From contig JAGOQK010000004.1 of the NCBI GenBank assembly GCA_017991475.1, positions 7,227 to 70,549 of the forward strand: a stretch of DNA of 63,323 nucleotides, given 5' to 3'. This stretch comes from Minisyncoccota bacterium (GTDB lineage Bacteria; Patescibacteriota; Minisyncoccia; Phycocordibacterales; PALSA-1337). The notes under the pieces are model-generated. The model had not been told where the DNA came from. It saw only the letters and a list, made by a program, of their open reading frames with translations, and made no database searches. Position 1 is the first letter of the stretch. Every line of letters starts with the position of its first letter. The translations under genes were made by a program, and so were the position numbers. Shown one piece after another: positions 10,323 to 13,466 of this stretch.

Positions 10323-10571
10323 TTAACCCTTGCTGCCAGACTGCTTCACAAACTGAACGGTGTCGCCGTTCTTGACGACACGATCGTCATCGACGTTCTC
10401 GTCTTCCCCACCCTCGACCCGTACGATCGCGAGAGAGGTCGGTGCGATGTTGAGCACATCACCCAAACGCTTGCGGATGTCGCCGACGGTTAGGGTCTCA
10501 CCTTCGCCAAGGTCGATAGTTTGACTGTTGGCTCCACACTGGATACTGACGCCTTTCGATTCCGTTGCCAT
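10323..10571 (-). CDS. Ubiquitin-like (beta-grasp) protein with C-terminal GSKG
   Basis: 82 aa; TVGDIRKRLGDVLNI helix, VKNGDTVQFVKQSGSKG tail typical of ThiS/MoaD-like and PRTRC protein C-like Ubls; SD aaaggaag upstream. Confidence 0.88.
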   Translation of the reverse strand: MATESKGVSIQCGANSQTIDLGEGETLTVGDIRKRLGDVLNIAPTSLAIVRVEGGEDENVDDDRVVKNGDTVQFVKQSGSKG

Positions 10572-10608
10572 ATAACTATCACTTCCTTTCTTTTGGTTTT
10601 TGTTGTTG

Positions 10609-11298
10609 CTATACCGCTTTGCGCAATATAGCCTGTGTGTTTCCTGTTGTAAGATCGAAGTACTGCTCGGAGTATACCAATTTTCCGCTTCCTGACAAGA
10701 AGCTACAAACCATCCTGAATGCTGAGAGCATCAGTACGGCAGCAGTCAAGTTCGTGAAGATGAGCTGTGGCACACCCATTCGAGCGAGCTCTTCGCATCC
10801 AAGTTCCGCAGGATTTCGATCCGACGGCTTCTCGATCTCCGGATGGAGATACGTGATCGGAGGCAAGATGCTCCTTCCTCCGCGGCGAACATAGATCTGG
10901 ACGTTGCCGTCCATCAGTTCGTTCCCGCCAGAGATGAGGACCACATCGTCGAGCGTCCTACAGTGGTCCGACACGAGCTTCCGGGTAGCATGGTTGTCCA
11001 CTCCCAAAAGCACGATATCTCCGGCATTGATCATGAAGAAGATATTCTCCTCGGTCACGAACTGAGGCTTCGCCTCGATCGCAAGCTCCGGAAAATCCCG
11101 CTTCATCCGCTGCACAGTCACTTCAGCCTTATTGCCGACATCCAAGAATTCCTGGCGGTCCGCATTTCTAGCTTCATAGTTATCGCCGTCAATGACGGTG
11201 ACTTGATATGCTTCACCTTTGGAGGCATCGATATGCCGGCAGAGCGGCGACACGAGATGACTCCCAATGCCGCCGAGACCGATCACTTTAATGTTCAT
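10609..11298 (-). CDS. ThiF/E1-like adenylating enzyme
   Basis: IGLGGIG, IDGD, NADRQ, GVDNHATR; candidate catalytic Cys in ELGCEE; SD aaaggag before ATG 11298. Confidence 0.93.
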   Translation of the reverse strand: MNIKVIGLGGIGSHLVSPLCRHIDASKGEAYQVTVIDGDNYEARNADRQEFLDVGNKAEVTVQRMKRDFPELAIEAKPQFVTEENIFFMINAGDIVLLGVDNHATRKLVSDHCRTLDDVVLISGGNELMDGNVQIYVRRGGRSILPPITYLHPEIEKPSDRNPAELGCEELARMGVPQLIFTNLTAAVLMLSAFRMVCSFLSGSGKLVYSEQYFDLTTGNTQAILRKAV

Positions 11299-11992
11299 CT
11301 TTTCTCCTTTTAAACAGATACTTTTTCTGAGACTGAGGACGATGGTAGATCGCCTCGGTCCATTCTCTAGGGATTTCCCAGTGATGATCGACTGCACCAT
11401 CGATGCAACAGCTGTTGCCTGGTCCCACGAGCCCCTCGAACCAGGACATTTCTATCGGGTATCTCATCCCATTGACCACCATCTCGGCGGACAGAGAGAA
11501 CCTGGGGTAGTCTTTCATGGAACCGACCGTGATGTGAACACCATCCGAATGCTCCTCATCCTTGAGGTCTGTTTCGGAGTGATACGCGGGGTAACGCCCA
11601 TGCGAATGAATCGTTCCAACGTGCACGAATCCCGACAGCCGCCCGGCCGCATCATAATCGATGCTTCCAGGATCGACAGTCTGGTCCGGAACGGTGAGCA
11701 CATAGCCCGTTGTCTCATTGTGATGAAGCAACAGACACACCTCGCTCCCCGATATGTCGTAGACGCTCTTTGCCAACCGCACCGCCGGGTAGAGTATCCG
11801 TGCGGGCAGAGGTGGCAAGAGTAGTTTCATCGAAACCTCTTCGTTCTCCAGCACTTTAATGTCTTGAACGCGGACCACCGCATCGACCCAACTCATCTTC
11901 TTGCGAAGAAAGAAGCCGTTTCCGGCCACGATGTAATAGTTACCTTGAGGAGGTTCCCCTTCACCGGGTCTCTTGATGTGAATCGGTATCAT
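11288..11992 (-). CDS. JAB/MPN+ metalloprotease (PRTRC protein A-like)
   Basis: Catalytic E in GSEV, intact HSH-x7-S-x2-D (HSHGRYPAYHSETD), N-terminal YIVAGNGFFL motif. Confidence 0.92.
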   Translation of the reverse strand: MIPIHIKRPGEGEPPQGNYYIVAGNGFFLRKKMSWVDAVVRVQDIKVLENEEVSMKLLLPPLPARILYPAVRLAKSVYDISGSEVCLLLHHNETTGYVLTVPDQTVDPGSIDYDAAGRLSGFVHVGTIHSHGRYPAYHSETDLKDEEHSDGVHITVGSMKDYPRFSLSAEMVVNGMRYPIEMSWFEGLVGPGNSCCIDGAVDHHWEIPREWTEAIYHRPQSQKKYLFKRRKDEH

Positions 11993-13466
11993 TAGTATTC
12001 CTTTTTTGTTCATCGAAGAATGCTTTCTGGGCGGCCAACACAGGCTCCCCAGTGTTTGCATCCATAGATTTCAGTGTTTGTTGTACGGCTTTCTGAAGAG
12101 CCTCCTTGATCGACTCATGCGAGAAGATCGACTCAGCCCCTTTTGACAGCTCTGATCTAGTGAACTCAGCCGCGCCTGCGACAGTATTCTTGAGCTCACC
12201 AGTGAGCTGCTGCAACTGAGGCCCATCGATATTCCATCCGGGCACCAGATTGAAGCAGGCTTCTTTCATACCGTTGGACATCGTGACAGCGATGCCTTCT
12301 ACTGCTCTGTCAAGAGCAGTCATGATCACCTTCCCGTCTTTGTCCTTCTTGATCGCCTTCGATCCATCCTGGAATTCCGCCGAGATGATCTTGAGCATTT
12401 CAGCCACAGACTTCCGGGCAGAGCGCCAGGTATACGACAGTCCGAACAGTGAGTCCTTTTTGCTTTGAGCTTCCCATTTTTCGAAACTGATCTGATTGGT
12501 CAGATTAGAAGGATCATGGGTCTCGATGAATCTGCCGCCCCAGAAGTTGCCTATCGACTCTTCAGCCATCTCCGCCAATGAAGGCTTTGCGGCTGAAGCC
12601 GAGAAGCAGACTCTGAAGTCCGAATAGATGTTCGGCGTAGCCACGCACAAGAGATCATCTTGCATACTCCTGAGCGGTGCCTTCCTGAAGAAGGCGTACA
12701 TGTTATCCGATTTACGCCCGCGCAGTACGACGAAGAAAACCATATACGGAAGAGAGAGCTGGTACGATTGCGACCGCGCGCCGTCTTCCGCCATAATCTT
12801 CAAAGTCCGTTTTTGCGGAGGTTGTTCGATGACGAACACTGTCATCTTGCCGTTGCGGACACAAAAGCGCGTCCCTGTAGGCAATGCCGGCGAGTCACCG
12901 TCTCCGGAACCCGTTGCATCATCTTCCGGTAAAACTTCTTCCCGAACGCGCATAACGAGTTCGGCTAGGTGCTTTTTCGCCTTTTCAGCGAAGATGGCGG
13001 TGGTCTGCTTTCCCAATTCTTCGAGAAGCTTCTGCCGGAACAGATTCCGGTCAGACTTCACGAGCGTCTGCAGGTGCGTGCCTTCAAACATTTGAACGAG
13101 CCGAGCTGTTTCCGCGGCCACTTTTGCCTGAATCTGACTGACATGTTTTGCTGCTATTGCGTCGAAGCCGTTGCTGGCCGATGCGAGCACCGTTGCAGGC
13201 ACTTCATTGAGCTGTTTGGCAAGCGTCGTACGCACAGCCCGAGTGATTGAGGTCACAATCTCAGTAAACCGCACCGATCCGGTCTTGACGACCGAAAAGA
13301 CGGGCACAATGCCCATAAAGCGGCTTTTTTCTACCTGGAGAGCCATCCGCGTGAGCGTAACCTCTCCTGGTTCCTTGGTATCGCATACGAAGAACCCGTT
13401 TCCGAGTCTTGGCTGCAAAAAGCGGCCAAGCCTAGCCTGAAGGCTTTGCCTTATACGAGCAATCAT
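11961..13466 (-). CDS. E2-like ubiquitin-conjugating-fold protein (Prok-E2 family D-like) with long helical extensions
   Basis: Central LSLPYMVFF...LLCVATPNIYSDFRVCF resembles the Prok-E2 D / PRTRC protein B core, with candidate Cys at 12606-12608; operonic with JAB, E1 and Ubl. Confidence 0.75.
   Translation of the reverse strand: MIARIRQSLQARLGRFLQPRLGNGFFVCDTKEPGEVTLTRMALQVEKSRFMGIVPVFSVVKTGSVRFTEIVTSITRAVRTTLAKQLNEVPATVLASASNGFDAIAAKHVSQIQAKVAAETARLVQMFEGTHLQTLVKSDRNLFRQKLLEELGKQTTAIFAEKAKKHLAELVMRVREEVLPEDDATGSGDGDSPALPTGTRFCVRNGKMTVFVIEQPPQKRTLKIMAEDGARSQSYQLSLPYMVFFVVLRGRKSDNMYAFFRKAPLRSMQDDLLCVATPNIYSDFRVCFSASAAKPSLAEMAEESIGNFWGGRFIETHDPSNLTNQISFEKWEAQSKKDSLFGLSYTWRSARKSVAEMLKIISAEFQDGSKAIKKDKDGKVIMTALDRAVEGIAVTMSNGMKEACFNLVPGWNIDGPQLQQLTGELKNTVAGAAEFTRSELSKGAESIFSHESIKEALQKAVQQTLKSMDANTGEPVLAAQKAFFDEQKRNTNDTDSHQETR

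What the first reader, a model, noticed from the sequence alone, without database searches (positions are those of the whole stretch)
10323..13466. Standalone four-gene ubiquitin-like conjugation operon (E2-JAB-E1-Ubl) in a CPR genome
Seen: four tightly coupled minus-strand genes, with E2/JAB overlapping by 32 nt and JAB/E1 by 11 nt. They have SD-like motifs and one terminator. They encode an E2-like protein with a candidate Cys (RVCF), a JAB with an intact HSH-x7-S-x2-D site, a ThiF/E1 with a candidate Cys (LGCEE), and an 82-aa Ubl whose last residue is Gly (SGSKG). Established: E1+E2+JAB+Ubl is the minimal protein-conjugation set, as in the Bil/Bub anti-phage systems and PRTRC cassettes, whereas sulfur-relay Ubls (ThiS/MoaD) have no E2. 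Inference: this is a protein-tagging system. It looks PRTRC-related in its motifs but lacks ParB and the other PRTRC genes. The C-terminal Gly is already exposed, so the JAB is probably a deconjugase. Its role in an ultra-reduced epibiont (phage defence or protein regulation) is unknown. Best candidate in the window for an undescribed system.
Basis: partly seen in the sequence, partly recalled or inferred. Interest (0 to 1): 0.9.

Follow-up and report, generated by a model that had tools for sequence, protein, structure and literature searches.

The report
PRTRC-type ubiquitin-like tagging cassette
Four tightly packed genes in a candidate-phyla-radiation bacterium encode a small ubiquitin-like protein with the enzymes that probably activate, transfer and remove it; they are a stand-alone version of an operon type predicted in 2006 and, in the papers searched, never tested.

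Summary
Four minus-strand genes lie at 13466..10323, with 32-nt and 11-nt overlaps, Shine-Dalgarno-like sites, one promoter-like site and one terminator.

- JAMM site: E84, then H129-S-H131-x7-S139-x2-D142.
- E1 Cys168: invariant in 13 E1s from Patescibacteria, phage contigs and plasmids.
- Ubl: ends ...SG[ST]KG-stop in all six close homologues.
- Cys287 of the 501-aa protein: invariant in 54 diverse relatives, eight residues after a near-invariant Asn.

The cassette is not Bil or Bub. Its nearest known relatives are the B-A-ThiF-C core of PRTRC cassettes (Iyer et al. 2006 row 6d; Pfam Prok-E2_D). It lacks ParB and PRTRC E and F, and it scores below the PRTRC model cut-offs.

The E2 call is only partly supported. 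Profile comparison aligns Asn279 and Cys287 with the Asn and catalytic Cys of the UBC HPN motif (P 7.6e-4, above controls). However, a confident model of the core domain (pLDDT 90.5) matches no solved E2 structure.

The same gene order, E2-JAB-E1-Ubl, occurs at varied chromosomal sites in relatives and on seven predicted phage contigs.

Most likely mechanism: reversible protein tagging through an E1-then-E2 thioester relay. The biological role is untested; involvement in phage or mobile-element conflict is plausible. I rate it a new variant of a known but uncharacterised kind.

The parts
13535..13564 (-). Promoter-like site (TTGACA, 18 nt, AATACT, with TG) in the 101-nt gap after the RNase III gene.
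   Evidence: This is a consensus match only; 5 sites were found against 3.3 expected, so it is weak on its own.
11961..13466 (-). Gene for the 501-aa E2-like protein. It has an N-terminal small beta unit and a long helix (aa 1-178), a disordered linker (179-195), a Prok-E2_D-type core (196-368) and a C-terminal helical domain (384-497).
   Evidence: AF2 model, pLDDT 75.5. P55 and E402, outside the core, are conserved in 32 and 34 of 35 proteins of the same architecture.
12363..12881 (-). Core domain (aa 196-368) with the motif L-P-N279-x7-C287. The Cys287 codon is 12606..12608.
   Evidence: C287 is invariant and N279 near-invariant (N or D). Of 54 relatives, 20 hit Pfam Prok-E2_D (best 9.8e-10) and 8 hit PRTRC_B. 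hhalign against UBC gives P 7.6e-4 with Asn and Cys aligned. The AF2 core model has pLDDT 90.5 and pTM 0.88. It has no PDB match and four matches to phage proteins in BFVD.
11288..11992 (-). Gene for the 234-aa JAMM/MPN+ metallopeptidase with an N-terminal JAB-N-like domain. The metal site is E84, H129, H131, S139 and D142 (codons for H129-D142 at 11567..11608).
   Evidence: Prok-JAB 1.5e-6 and PRTRC_A 4.8e-13 over profile positions 25-190 of 192. Motif conservation is shown. tblastn hits genes annotated PRTRC system protein A.
10609..11298 (-). Gene for the 229-aa single-domain ThiF/E1 adenylating enzyme. It has G7-x-G-G-x-G12, N45-x2-R48-Q49, D101 and an invariant Cys168 (codon 10795..10797). 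It has no CxxC zinc pairs and no rhodanese domain.
   Evidence: ThiF 3.5e-18 and PRTRC_ThiF 2.4e-15. The profile matches ThiF, TcdA, UBA5, UBA3, SAE2 and MoeB at 1e-10 to 1e-12. Invariant columns are listed.
10323..10571 (-). Gene for the 82-aa beta-grasp ubiquitin-like protein. Gly82 (codon 10326..10328) is the last residue, directly before the stop codon.
   Evidence: The C-terminal motif F-[VI]-K-x-[SA]-G-x-K-G is shared with PRTRC protein C, a Gloeothece plasmid ORF and metagenomic and phage-contig Ubls. The best PDB sequence hits are SAMP2/PF1061 at E 0.013-0.026. hhalign gives P 3e-4 against MoaD and 1.3e-3 against ubiquitin, both above shuffles.
10282..10305 (-). Intrinsic terminator-like hairpin (10-bp stem, 6 G-C pairs, then TTTTATTT), 18 nt after the Ubl stop codon.

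Best explanation
This is a stand-alone, chromosomal version of the PRTRC / Iyer-6d class of prokaryotic ubiquitin-like conjugation cassettes.

**Proposed mechanism**
1. The 229-aa ThiF-type E1 binds the 82-aa beta-grasp protein and adenylates its already exposed C-terminal Gly82.
2. The acyl group passes to E1 Cys168, and then to Cys287 of the 501-aa Prok-E2_D-type protein. Asn279, eight residues upstream, would act like the Asn of the HPN motif in canonical E2s.
3. The E2-like protein has no partner E3. Its variable N- and C-terminal helical domains would choose the targets, and it would transfer the Ubl to target lysines.
4. The JAMM peptidase removes the tag. No maturation step is needed here.

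**What is shown and what is inferred**
- Shown: the genes, motifs, conservation, homology and operon linkage.
- Inferred: every chemical step, the targets and the biological role.

**Role**
My best guess, at about 0.4, is a part in conflict with phages or mobile elements, as for Bil and CBASS-Cap2. The rest of the probability is split between protein regulation or quality control and something unforeseen.
For: **Operon structure and selection**
- One tightly coupled operon with a single terminator.
- Purifying selection on all four genes.

**E1**
- A complete E1 nucleotide-binding and Mg-Asp signature, plus a Cys invariant across CPR, phage-contig and plasmid homologues.

**JAB**
- A complete JAMM site with the canonical 45-residue spacing from Glu to the first His.

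**Ubl**
- The Ubl profile is closest to SAMP2, MoaD and ubiquitin.
- A strictly conserved C-terminal G-x-K-G motif ends at the stop codon in all six close homologues.

**E2-like protein**
- The 501-aa protein shares a core domain with 1494 representative proteins. Cys287 is invariant and Asn279 near-invariant in the 54 diverse relatives aligned.
- That domain links by intermediate sequences to Pfam Prok-E2_D and TIGR PRTRC_B.
- By hhalign it aligns with UBC E2s, with Asn on Asn and Cys on Cys (score 27.5 against at most 18.2 in 30 shuffled, reversed and unrelated controls).

**Linkage**
- E2-core, JAB, E1 and Ubl genes co-occur in every relative locus examined that is long enough to show it. 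In most they follow the window's order E2-JAB-E1-Ubl; in L013 and L014 the Ubl gene lies upstream, and in L022 the JAB is on the other strand.
- The B-A-ThiF order matches canonical PRTRC.

**Conflict role**
- Chromosomal position varies between relatives.
- Only 2 of 185,579 species genomes matched the pattern search.
- A second Ubl-type cluster lies alongside in L004.
- The E2 and JAB evolve faster than their housekeeping neighbours: dN 0.23-0.25 against 0.04-0.11.
- Homologous cassettes occur on plasmids and on predicted phage contigs.
- Three classes of related bacterial E1-E2 conjugation operons have been shown to conjugate proteins: type II CBASS, Bil and Bub. CBASS and Bil act against phages (PMC11601596, PMC11601603).
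Against: - Nothing here is biochemical.
- A confident AF2 model of the core (pLDDT 90.5) has no significant Foldseek match to any solved E2 or any other PDB structure: best E 0.017, TM below 0.2. The full-length model gives the same result. The UBC fold is therefore not confirmed.
- The window protein itself hits no Pfam or NCBIfam model. hhalign of the CPR-only profile against one canonical PRTRC_B finds nothing.
- The His that Iyer et al. report as conserved after the Cys is present in the window protein (H317) but not across the family.
- PADLOC has no model for the E2, JAB or Ubl.
- The cassette has sat at the same rnc-smc site in two species about 20% diverged, among housekeeping genes and with no integrase. 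That fits a settled host function as well as it fits defence.
- Archaeal SAMPs, the best PDB sequence match for the Ubl, are conjugated without any E2 (established knowledge).
Confidence: 0.62

Rival explanations
1. Conjugation without an E2, or sulfur carriage. The ThiF enzyme and the beta-grasp protein would work as in archaeal SAMP/UbaA or Thermus TtuB/TtuC, or as a ThiS/MoaD/CysO-type thiocarboxylate carrier with a JAMM partner. The 501-aa protein would then be a target, scaffold or regulator rather than a transfer enzyme.
For: - The best PDB sequence matches of the Ubl profile are SAMP2/PF1061, and hhalign favours MoaD.
- The E1 is a minimal MoeB/ThiF-size single domain. Its best PDB matches are ThiF and TcdA.
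- The core model of the 501-aa protein does not match any solved E2.
Against: - The 501-aa protein's core carries a Cys invariant in 54 diverse relatives, with an Asn eight residues upstream that aligns on the UBC active site.
- That gene is linked to JAB, E1 and Ubl genes at every relative locus examined that is long enough to show it.
- There is no rhodanese domain on the E1, and no cysteine-desulfurase, thiazole, molybdopterin or cysteine-synthase gene beside the operon. The flanks are SMC and RNase III.
- The Ubl ends K-G rather than the G-G usual for sulfur carriers.
Confidence: 0.13
2. The 501-aa protein is the substrate. As the CD-NTase is in type II CBASS, it would be the thing that gets modified or primed. 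Its conserved Cys or a Lys would accept the Ubl (self-modification), which would switch an activity held in its helical domains.
For: - The accessory domains around the core differ greatly between relatives (about 220 to more than 1000 aa), as effector or sensor modules do.
- There is no structural match to E2s.
- No separate target or effector gene is conserved beside the cassette.
Against: - No known enzymatic or effector domain is detected in the flanking regions.
- The conserved part is the Cys-bearing core, not the accessory parts.
- The Asn-x7-Cys alignment on the UBC catalytic motif favours a transfer enzyme.
Confidence: 0.1
3. A module captured from a phage or plasmid. It would serve the mobile element (host takeover or counter-defence), or be a decaying remnant with no role for the cell.
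For: - The same four-gene order occurs on seven IMG/VR contigs next to SbcCD, HNH and radical-SAM genes.
- Four BFVD phage proteins share the core fold, with TM up to 0.73.
- PRTRC cassettes sit on conjugative plasmids.
Against: - The flanks in the window are rnc, nusB, L32, tRNAs and smc, with no integrase or phage gene.
- The cassette is at the same site in a species-level relative and is under purifying selection, with dN/dS 0.09-0.16.
- GC content matches the surroundings.
- There are no tblastn hits in the 50,697 deposited GenBank phage records.
Confidence: 0.08

Closest known systems
PRTRC cassette (ParB-related, ThiF-related cassette; TIGR03734-03742), which is operon type 6d of Iyer, Burroughs and Aravind 2006; Pfam Prok-E2_D
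   Same: - The four core functions are shared, and the order B(E2-like)-A(JAB)-ThiF is the same.
- The JAB and E1 have PRTRC_A and PRTRC_ThiF as their best NCBIfam hits, aligned nearly end to end.
- The E2-like core shares the Asn-x7-Cys motif and lacks the His of the HPN motif: ours is LPNIYSDFRVC, Cupriavidus has FNTWDHGKIC and Gloeothece has LPNIYDNGAIC.
- The Ubl shares the C-terminal motif F-V-[KR]-x-x-G-x-K-G.
- The E1 Cys is conserved in both.
   Different: - There is no ParB and no PRTRC E or F.
- All scores are far below the TIGRFAM cut-offs: 49 against 102 bits and 56 against 145 bits.
- The Ubl gene lies after the E1 rather than before the E2, and it ends exactly at the Gly. PRTRC C carries three further residues.
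- The E2-like protein is 501 aa with helical extensions, against 238 aa. No similarity between those extensions and PRTRC F could be shown.
- The setting is chromosomal, in Patescibacteria, not a plasmid or ICE of Proteobacteria or Cyanobacteria.
Bil (type I/II BilABCD) anti-phage Ubl conjugation systems
   Same: - The gene set is the same: Ubl, E2, JAB peptidase and E1, with no E3.
- In Bil the E2 is proposed to pick the targets directly, and a JAB is present (PMC11601596).
- This is the best model for how the cassette may work.
   Different: [quoted passage not shown] Here the E1 is a single 229-aa domain with its Cys in the core.
- The E2-like and JAB proteins have no sequence match to any solved chain, Bil proteins included.
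- The gene order differs.
Bub (6E/DUF6527) operons
   Same: It is a diverged bacterial E1/E2/Ubl pathway with a peptidase, and its biological role is still open.
   Different: - Bub works through Tyr and Ser oxyesters and lacks catalytic cysteines. It also carries the DUF6527 serine protease BubE and fused genes.
- Here both cysteines are invariant and the operon has no fifth gene.
- The E1 profile hits BubCD only at 7.7e-6, well behind ThiF and UBA5.
Archaeal SAMP/UbaA/HvJAMM1 sampylation
   Same: - A small ThiS/MoaD-like modifier, a single-domain E1 and a JAMM deconjugase.
- SAMP2 is the best PDB sequence match of the Ubl profile.
   Different: Sampylation needs no E2 (established knowledge). 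Here a Cys-bearing E2-like gene is always linked to the other three.

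Membership tests
PRTRC system (NCBIfam/TIGRFAM definition) | ThiF-family protein scoring above the TIGR03736 cut-off | tested here: not met
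   56.5 bits against a cut-off of 144.75. It is still the best NCBIfam hit, aligned over profile positions 10-241 of 245.
PRTRC system (NCBIfam/TIGRFAM definition) | PRTRC protein A (JAB with N-terminal domain) scoring above the TIGR03735 cut-off | tested here: not met
   49.1 bits against 101.8. It is the best hit, aligned over 25-190 of 192. phmmer with the Cupriavidus protein A gives 8.4e-12.
PRTRC system (NCBIfam/TIGRFAM definition) | PRTRC protein B (E2-like), TIGR03737 | tested here: not met
   The window protein has no hit at E up to 1. Two of 18 close homologues reach 0.025 and 8 of 54 distant ones reach 1.1e-6. An iterated local profile hits Cupriavidus B at only 0.0046, but with the Asn-x7-Cys motif aligned.
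PRTRC system (NCBIfam/TIGRFAM definition) | Adjacent ParB-family gene and PRTRC proteins E and F | tested here: not met
   phmmer with Cupriavidus ParB, E, F, C and B against all window ORFs found only A and ThiF. The flanking genes are SMC and RNase III.
Iyer 2006 operon type 6d / Pfam Prok-E2_D | E2-like protein with a conserved Cys and lacking the His of HPN | tested here: met
   The motif is L-P-N279-x7-C287. The Cys is invariant in the alignments of 54 and of 35 relatives.
Iyer 2006 operon type 6d / Pfam Prok-E2_D | PF14460 hit at the gathering threshold | tested here: not met
   The window protein has no hit. P0010 and P0014 score 24.8 bits against a cut-off of 25. Of 54 relatives found with the core profile, 20 hit PF14460 (best 9.8e-10), so the homology is transitive.
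Iyer 2006 operon type 6d / Pfam Prok-E2_D | Absolutely conserved His C-terminal to the Cys | tested here: not met
   H317 (ETHDP) is present in the window protein and aligns with the THP of Cupriavidus B. It is replaced in many family members and is not among the conserved columns.
Iyer 2006 operon type 6d / Pfam Prok-E2_D | Small beta-grasp protein with a conserved C-terminal Gly; JAB with an extra N-terminal domain; E1-like gene | tested here: met
   The conserved Trp of JAB-N is present (W35). The conserved Arg is Lys or Arg at neighbouring positions, so that detail is unclear.
Iyer 2006 operon type 6d / Pfam Prok-E2_D | Separate alpha-helical protein gene | tested here: inconclusive
   There is no separate gene. 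The E2-like protein has long helical N- and C-terminal regions, but hhalign against PRTRC F finds nothing.
Canonical UBC-fold E2 | UBC fold | tested here: inconclusive
Canonical UBC-fold E2 | HPN...Cys active site with 8-residue spacing | tested here: met
   The Asn and Cys are present with the right spacing and align on UBE2D2 Asn77 and Cys85. The His is replaced by Leu.
Bil (type I/II) | Multidomain E1 (inactive plus active adenylation domains plus Cys domain) and a BilB-type E2 | tested here: not met
   The E1 is 229 aa with a single domain. The E2-like protein has no PDB sequence match at E up to 10. The definition is taken from PMC11601596.
Bub (6E/DUF6527) | BubE DUF6527 serine protease; E1 and E2 without catalytic Cys | tested here: not met
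   The operon has four genes and no further gene. Cys168 and Cys287 are invariant.
JAMM/MPN+ metallopeptidase | Glu ... H-x-H-x7-S-x2-D metal site | tested here: met
   E84, H129, H131, S139 and D142 are conserved in 7 of 7 sequences. Prok-JAB scores 28.5 bits against a cut-off of 25.
E1-like adenylating enzymes (ThiF/MoeB/Uba) | Gly-rich nucleotide loop, N-x2-R-Q motif, Mg-binding Asp | tested here: met
   Invariant G7, G9, G10, G12, N45, R48, Q49 and D101. ThiF scores 66 bits against a cut-off of 28. D101 aligns with the Asp of the ThiF motif TDN.
ThiS/MoaD sulfur-carrier pathway | Linked sulfurtransferase or biosynthetic partner genes (rhodanese, ThiG/ThiH, MoaE, CysM) | tested here: not met
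   There are none in the operon or its flanks, and the E1 has no rhodanese domain. The rest of the window was not annotated gene by gene.

The most novel reading that the evidence does not exclude
The cassette and its roughly 1500 relatives would be a fourth mechanistic class of bacterial ubiquitin-like conjugation, after CBASS-Cap2, Bil and Bub. It corresponds to the one Iyer class (6d) that is not among the families tested in the papers read here. Its transfer enzyme has a six-stranded Cys domain that is not superimposable on any solved E2. It is shared between Patescibacteria chromosomes, conjugative plasmids and large uncultured phages. In these tiny-genome bacteria it would tag phage or host proteins as an immune or takeover device.
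Probability: 0.3. Interest if true: 0.8.

Novelty: new variant of a known kind. Interest (0 to 1): 0.6.

Why it matters
- Of the five prokaryotic E1/E2/JAB operon classes predicted in 2006, 6a/6b (CBASS-type and MBL), 6c (Bil) and 6e (Bub) belong to characterised pathway families. In the papers searched here, nobody has tested 6d/PRTRC.
- This window gives a compact four-gene version with a Ubl that needs no processing, which makes reconstitution simple.
- The family reaches into Patescibacteria and uncultured phages. No paper in the library links a Ubl conjugation system to Patescibacteria.
- If the Cys domain is a working E2 with a fold that structure search cannot link to UBC, that bears on how E2 enzymes arose.

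Tried and rejected
1. **Foldseek, full-length model.** The 501-aa model against the PDB gave only noise.
2. **Foldseek, core model.** The core against the PDB gave only noise, mainly influenza PB2 cap-binding domains at TM about 0.15. The UBC fold could therefore not be confirmed.
3. **Second catalytic Cys.** Cys404 is invariant in the 18 closest homologues, which suggested an E2/E3 hybrid. This is rejected: it is Cys in only 17 of 35 proteins of the same architecture and is otherwise Leu, Val or Ile.
4. **Helical extensions as a fused PRTRC F.** hhalign found nothing.
5. **Direct comparison with one PRTRC_B.** hhalign of the CPR core profile against Cupriavidus PRTRC_B found nothing. Only an iterated broader profile or intermediate sequences make the link.
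6. **Profile of the 501-aa family against PDB sequences.** Only weak Rad50 coiled-coil hits appeared (E 0.067). I take these as helix composition.
7. **tblastn of the E2-like and JAB proteins against 50,697 deposited phage genomes.** No match. The E2-like protein also has no match in plasmids.
8. **PADLOC.** Only weak Cap2 E1-E2 hits to the ThiF domain.
9. **Expression data.** The operon is held only in metagenome DNA runs (wastewater and marine). No RNA run was found.
10. **ThiS comparison.** hhalign of the Ubl profile against E. coli ThiS was not above shuffles.
11. **Viral-contig scan with the diverse alignment.** The run with the close alignment worked.
12. **A reference that could not be read.** Burroughs et al. 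2008, on the anatomy of the E2 fold, is not held in the library.

Full report
**1. What is there**

Window positions 13466..10323 carry four minus-strand ORFs of 501, 234, 229 and 82 codons. From the sequence:
- The second gene starts at ATG 11992, 32 nt before the first gene's TGA at 11961.
- The third gene starts at ATG 11298, 11 nt before the second gene's TAA at 11288.
- The fourth gene starts 37 nt after the third ends.
- AAAGGA, AAAGGAG and GAAAGGAAG precede the starts.
- A 10-bp hairpin followed by a T-run lies at 10305..10282. A TTGACA-18-AATACT site lies at 13564..13535, in the 101-nt gap after the RNase III gene.

The chosen starts are the ones conserved in homologues: MIPIHIK, MNIKVIGLGG and MAxExKGVSIQCG.

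The flanking genes are housekeeping: SMC (7868..10231), RNase III (13568..14266), a NusB-NUDIX fusion, ribosomal protein L32, and tRNA-Lys and tRNA-Leu. GC content does not differ from the surroundings.

**2. The genes are real and selected**

- A MAG titled 'Patescibacteria group bacterium H41-bin055_1' (L005) is collinear with the window from 7868 to 16843 at 74-84% nucleotide identity. It has the same four genes between rnc and smc.
- Between the two genomes pN is 0.07-0.22 and pS is 0.55-0.77. dN/dS is 0.09-0.16 for the E2-like, JAB and E1 genes; dS of the Ubl gene was saturated.
- The 501-aa protein and the JAB change faster (dN 0.25 and 0.23) than SMC, RNase III and NusB (dN 0.04-0.11).
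- The window's own sequence is held in wastewater metagenome runs. No RNA run was found.

**3. E1, JAB and Ubl**

*E1.* The 229-aa protein is a single ThiF-type adenylation domain (Pfam ThiF, 3.5e-18). Its best NCBIfam hit is PRTRC_ThiF at 2.4e-15, aligned over 10-241 of 245 but well below the cut-off.
- I aligned 13 sequences: five from Patescibacteria-type loci (window, L001, L003, L004, L005), one from another MAG (L030), five from predicted phage contigs and two from plasmids.
- The invariant columns are G7, G9, G10, G12, R21, D37, D39, N45, R48, Q49, K57, D101, R106 and C168, among others.
- The profile matches ThiF, TcdA, UBA5, UBA3, SAE2, MoeB, Uba4 and Uba1 at 1e-8 to 1e-12. D101 aligns on the metal-binding Asp of ThiF.
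- There are no CxxC pairs and no rhodanese domain.

*JAB.* The 234-aa protein hits Prok-JAB above the cut-off and PRTRC_A at 4.8e-13 over nearly the whole model.
- E84, H129, H131, S139 and D142 are conserved in seven homologues. The 45-residue spacing from Glu to His is, from memory, that of archaeal JAMM enzymes.
- An N-terminal domain carries the conserved motif N-G-x-F-x3-K-x2-W-V-D-A.

*Ubl.* The 82-aa protein has only a weak TGS hit of its own.
- Aligned with 13 relatives, its profile has SAMP2/PF1061 as its two best PDB sequence matches (E 0.013 and 0.026).
- hhalign scores above shuffles against MoaD (P 3e-4) and ubiquitin (P 1.3e-3), but not against ThiS.
- The C-terminal motif F-[VIL]-K-x-[SA]-G-x-K-G is the most conserved part of the protein.
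- In all six close homologues the final Gly is the last codon.
- In more distant relatives it is the last codon or is followed by one residue. In Cupriavidus PRTRC protein C it is followed by CHA, and in a Gloeothece plasmid ORF by about 80 residues.
- This pattern is what one expects of an adenylated Gly, with optional JAB-dependent maturation.

**4. The 501-aa protein**

*Direct searches.* It hits nothing in Pfam, NCBIfam, PADLOC or PDB sequences.

*Close family.* A word-based search found 20 homologues at 35-62% identity. The three named by their source are Patescibacteria proteins. Eighteen were aligned. The AF2 model shows:
- a short helix and a small beta unit;
- a helix of about 110 residues;
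- a disordered linker;
- a well-predicted core (aa 196-368);
- a C-terminal helical domain.

*Wider family.* The core alone gives a confident model (pLDDT 90.5, pTM 0.88): six antiparallel strands, a long loop carrying P-N279 and C287, then helices. A profile of the core finds 1494 representative proteins at E up to 1e-3, with lengths from about 180 to about 1300 aa.
- In 54 diverse relatives the invariant residues are P196, E214, P217, P240, C287, W309, F313 and W331. R220, L265, N279 and F308 are nearly invariant.
- Twenty of the 54 hit Pfam Prok-E2_D (best 9.8e-10), and eight hit PRTRC_B.
- Two close homologues score 24.8 bits on Prok-E2_D against a cut-off of 25.
- An iterated local profile aligns our LPNIYSDFRVCF with LPNIYDNGAICF of the Gloeothece plasmid protein (8e-10) and with FNTWDHGKICIG of Cupriavidus PRTRC B (0.0046).
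- The core domain therefore belongs to the Prok-E2_D superfamily, by transitive homology.

*Is it a UBC-fold E2?* The evidence is split.
- **For:** hhalign of the broad core profile against four human E2s gives a score of 27.5 (P 7.6e-4) over 115 columns. N279 and C287 align on the HPN Asn and the catalytic Cys.
- **Controls:** the reversed alignment scores 13.7, 30 column shuffles score at most 18.2, and unrelated alignments score at most 14.5.
- **Against:** Foldseek of the confident core model finds no E2, and nothing at all in the PDB below E 0.017. It does find four uncultured-phage proteins in BFVD at E 4e-5 to 5e-8, with TM 0.53-0.73.
- **Reading:** I take this as a very divergent E2-like domain with extra N-terminal strands. 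The fold remains unconfirmed.
- A second cysteine, C404, looked interesting in the close family but is not conserved more widely.

**5. Linkage and distribution**

- E2-core, JAB, E1 and Ubl genes occur together at every relative locus I examined that was long enough to show them.
- These loci include close Patescibacteria relatives in different chromosomal settings: next to a D-Ala-D-Ala carboxypeptidase gene, a NUDIX gene, or MreB/MurA-like genes.
- They also include proteins of the same ~490-aa architecture at only 17-22% identity, a 689-aa variant next to IS remnants, and shorter or longer variants.
- Most keep the order E2-JAB-E1-Ubl. In L013 and L014 the Ubl gene lies upstream of the E2 gene, and in L022 the JAB is on the opposite strand.
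- Seven IMG/VR contigs (36-150 kb, GC 26-32%, genes all on one strand) carry the same order. Their E2-like proteins are 824-884 aa, and their Ubls have an added N-terminal region. The neighbours are SbcCD, HNH endonuclease and radical-SAM genes.
- The pattern-based scan of one genome per species found only two of 185,579. That scan sees close relatives only.
- In plasmids, the JAB's tblastn hits are mostly genes annotated 'PRTRC system protein A'.
- The Cupriavidus necator pBB2 locus reads ParB-E-C-F-B-A-ThiF. Our order E2-JAB-E1 is therefore its B-A-ThiF.
- ParB, E and F have no counterpart in the window.

**6. Comparison with what is known**

Iyer, Burroughs and Aravind (2006; PMC1779556) listed five operon types with E1-like, E2-like and JAB genes. 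Row 6d reads: a small Ubl with a conserved C-terminal Gly; a JAB with an extra N-terminal domain; an E1-like protein; an E2-like protein lacking the usual His; and an alpha-helical protein. That description fits this cassette except on two points. There is no separate helical gene, and the downstream His is not conserved.

Work from the Corbett and Sorek groups has shown protein conjugation for type II CBASS, for Bil (6c is type II Bil) and for Bub (6e).

I found no paper in the library that tests 6d/PRTRC, and none that links a Ubl conjugation system to Patescibacteria.

The cassette is not Bil: its E1 is single-domain and its E2 is unrelated by sequence. It is not Bub: both cysteines are present and there is no DUF6527 gene.

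**7. Mechanism and role**

The best-supported reading is a reversible protein-tagging pathway:
1. E1 adenylates Gly82.
2. The acyl group passes through Cys168 to Cys287.
3. It is then transferred to target amines.
4. The JAMM enzyme reverses the modification.

Every chemical step is inferred from homology and conservation. The variable domains around the core, and the lack of any E3, suggest that the E2-like protein chooses the targets itself, as proposed for Bil.

*Points towards a conflict function:* sporadic distribution, variable position, a faster-evolving E2 and JAB, relatives on plasmids and phage contigs, and a second, unrelated ThiF/JAMM-like/Ubl cluster beside the cassette in L004.

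*Points equally compatible with a settled cellular role:* stable inheritance at the rnc-smc site in two species, and housekeeping neighbours.

I put the biochemical reading at about 0.6 and a defence or conflict role at about 0.4.

**8. Verdict**

It is a new, stand-alone Patescibacteria variant of an operon class that was predicted long ago and never characterised. It is not an undescribed kind of system. The E2 fold is the main open point.

Noticed in passing
L004:3869-7859 (minus strand), directly upstream of the E2_D cassette at L004:8001-11148: A second, unrelated Ubl-type cluster. It encodes a 568-aa and a 74-aa protein with no family hits, a 204-aa protein with an HSH-x7-S-x2-D JAMM-like motif, a 233-aa ThiF, and a 106-aa protein ending ...FAKVRGN, with a ThiS-like tail. 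This puts two different Ubl systems side by side in one small genome.
   Followed up: partly
L032-L038 (IMG/VR contigs; for example L033:7854-12982): Predicted phage contigs (GC 26-32%) carry the same E2-JAB-E1-Ubl order. Their E2-like proteins are 824-884 aa. Their Ubls are 153-237 aa, with an N-terminal region that resembles the Rho_N/HeH domain. The neighbours are SbcCD, HNH endonuclease and radical-SAM genes. The E2-like and JAB proteins have no PHROG family.
   Followed up: partly
window:14342-15244 (minus strand): A 300-aa fusion of NusB (aa 7-136, 3.8e-33) with a C-terminal NUDIX domain (aa 189-284, 4.4e-7).
   Followed up: partly
window:7868-10231 (minus strand): The SMC protein is only 787 aa (751 aa in L005). 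From memory, that is much shorter than the roughly 1200 aa usual for bacterial SMC, which implies a shortened coiled coil.
   Followed up: no
L031:759-2676 and L022:4270-10377: Some relatives carry two consecutive genes with the E2_D core. L031 has proteins of 343 and about 300 aa; L022 has proteins of about 1056 and 895 aa. In L022 the JAB is on the opposite strand.
   Followed up: no
L029:3827-7631 (Gloeothece verrucosa PCC 7822 plasmid Cy782202): A PRTRC-like cluster whose genes are annotated only as hypothetical proteins, apart from the ThiF. Its Ubl candidate (136 aa) has the G-T-K-G motif in the middle, followed by about 80 residues, so it would need cleavage. A ParB-family gene lies 2 kb away on the other strand.
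   Followed up: partly
L001:13060-15104: In one close relative, an AAA_15/AAA_21 ATPase gene pair of the kind common in defence loci lies 2 kb downstream of the cassette.
   Followed up: no
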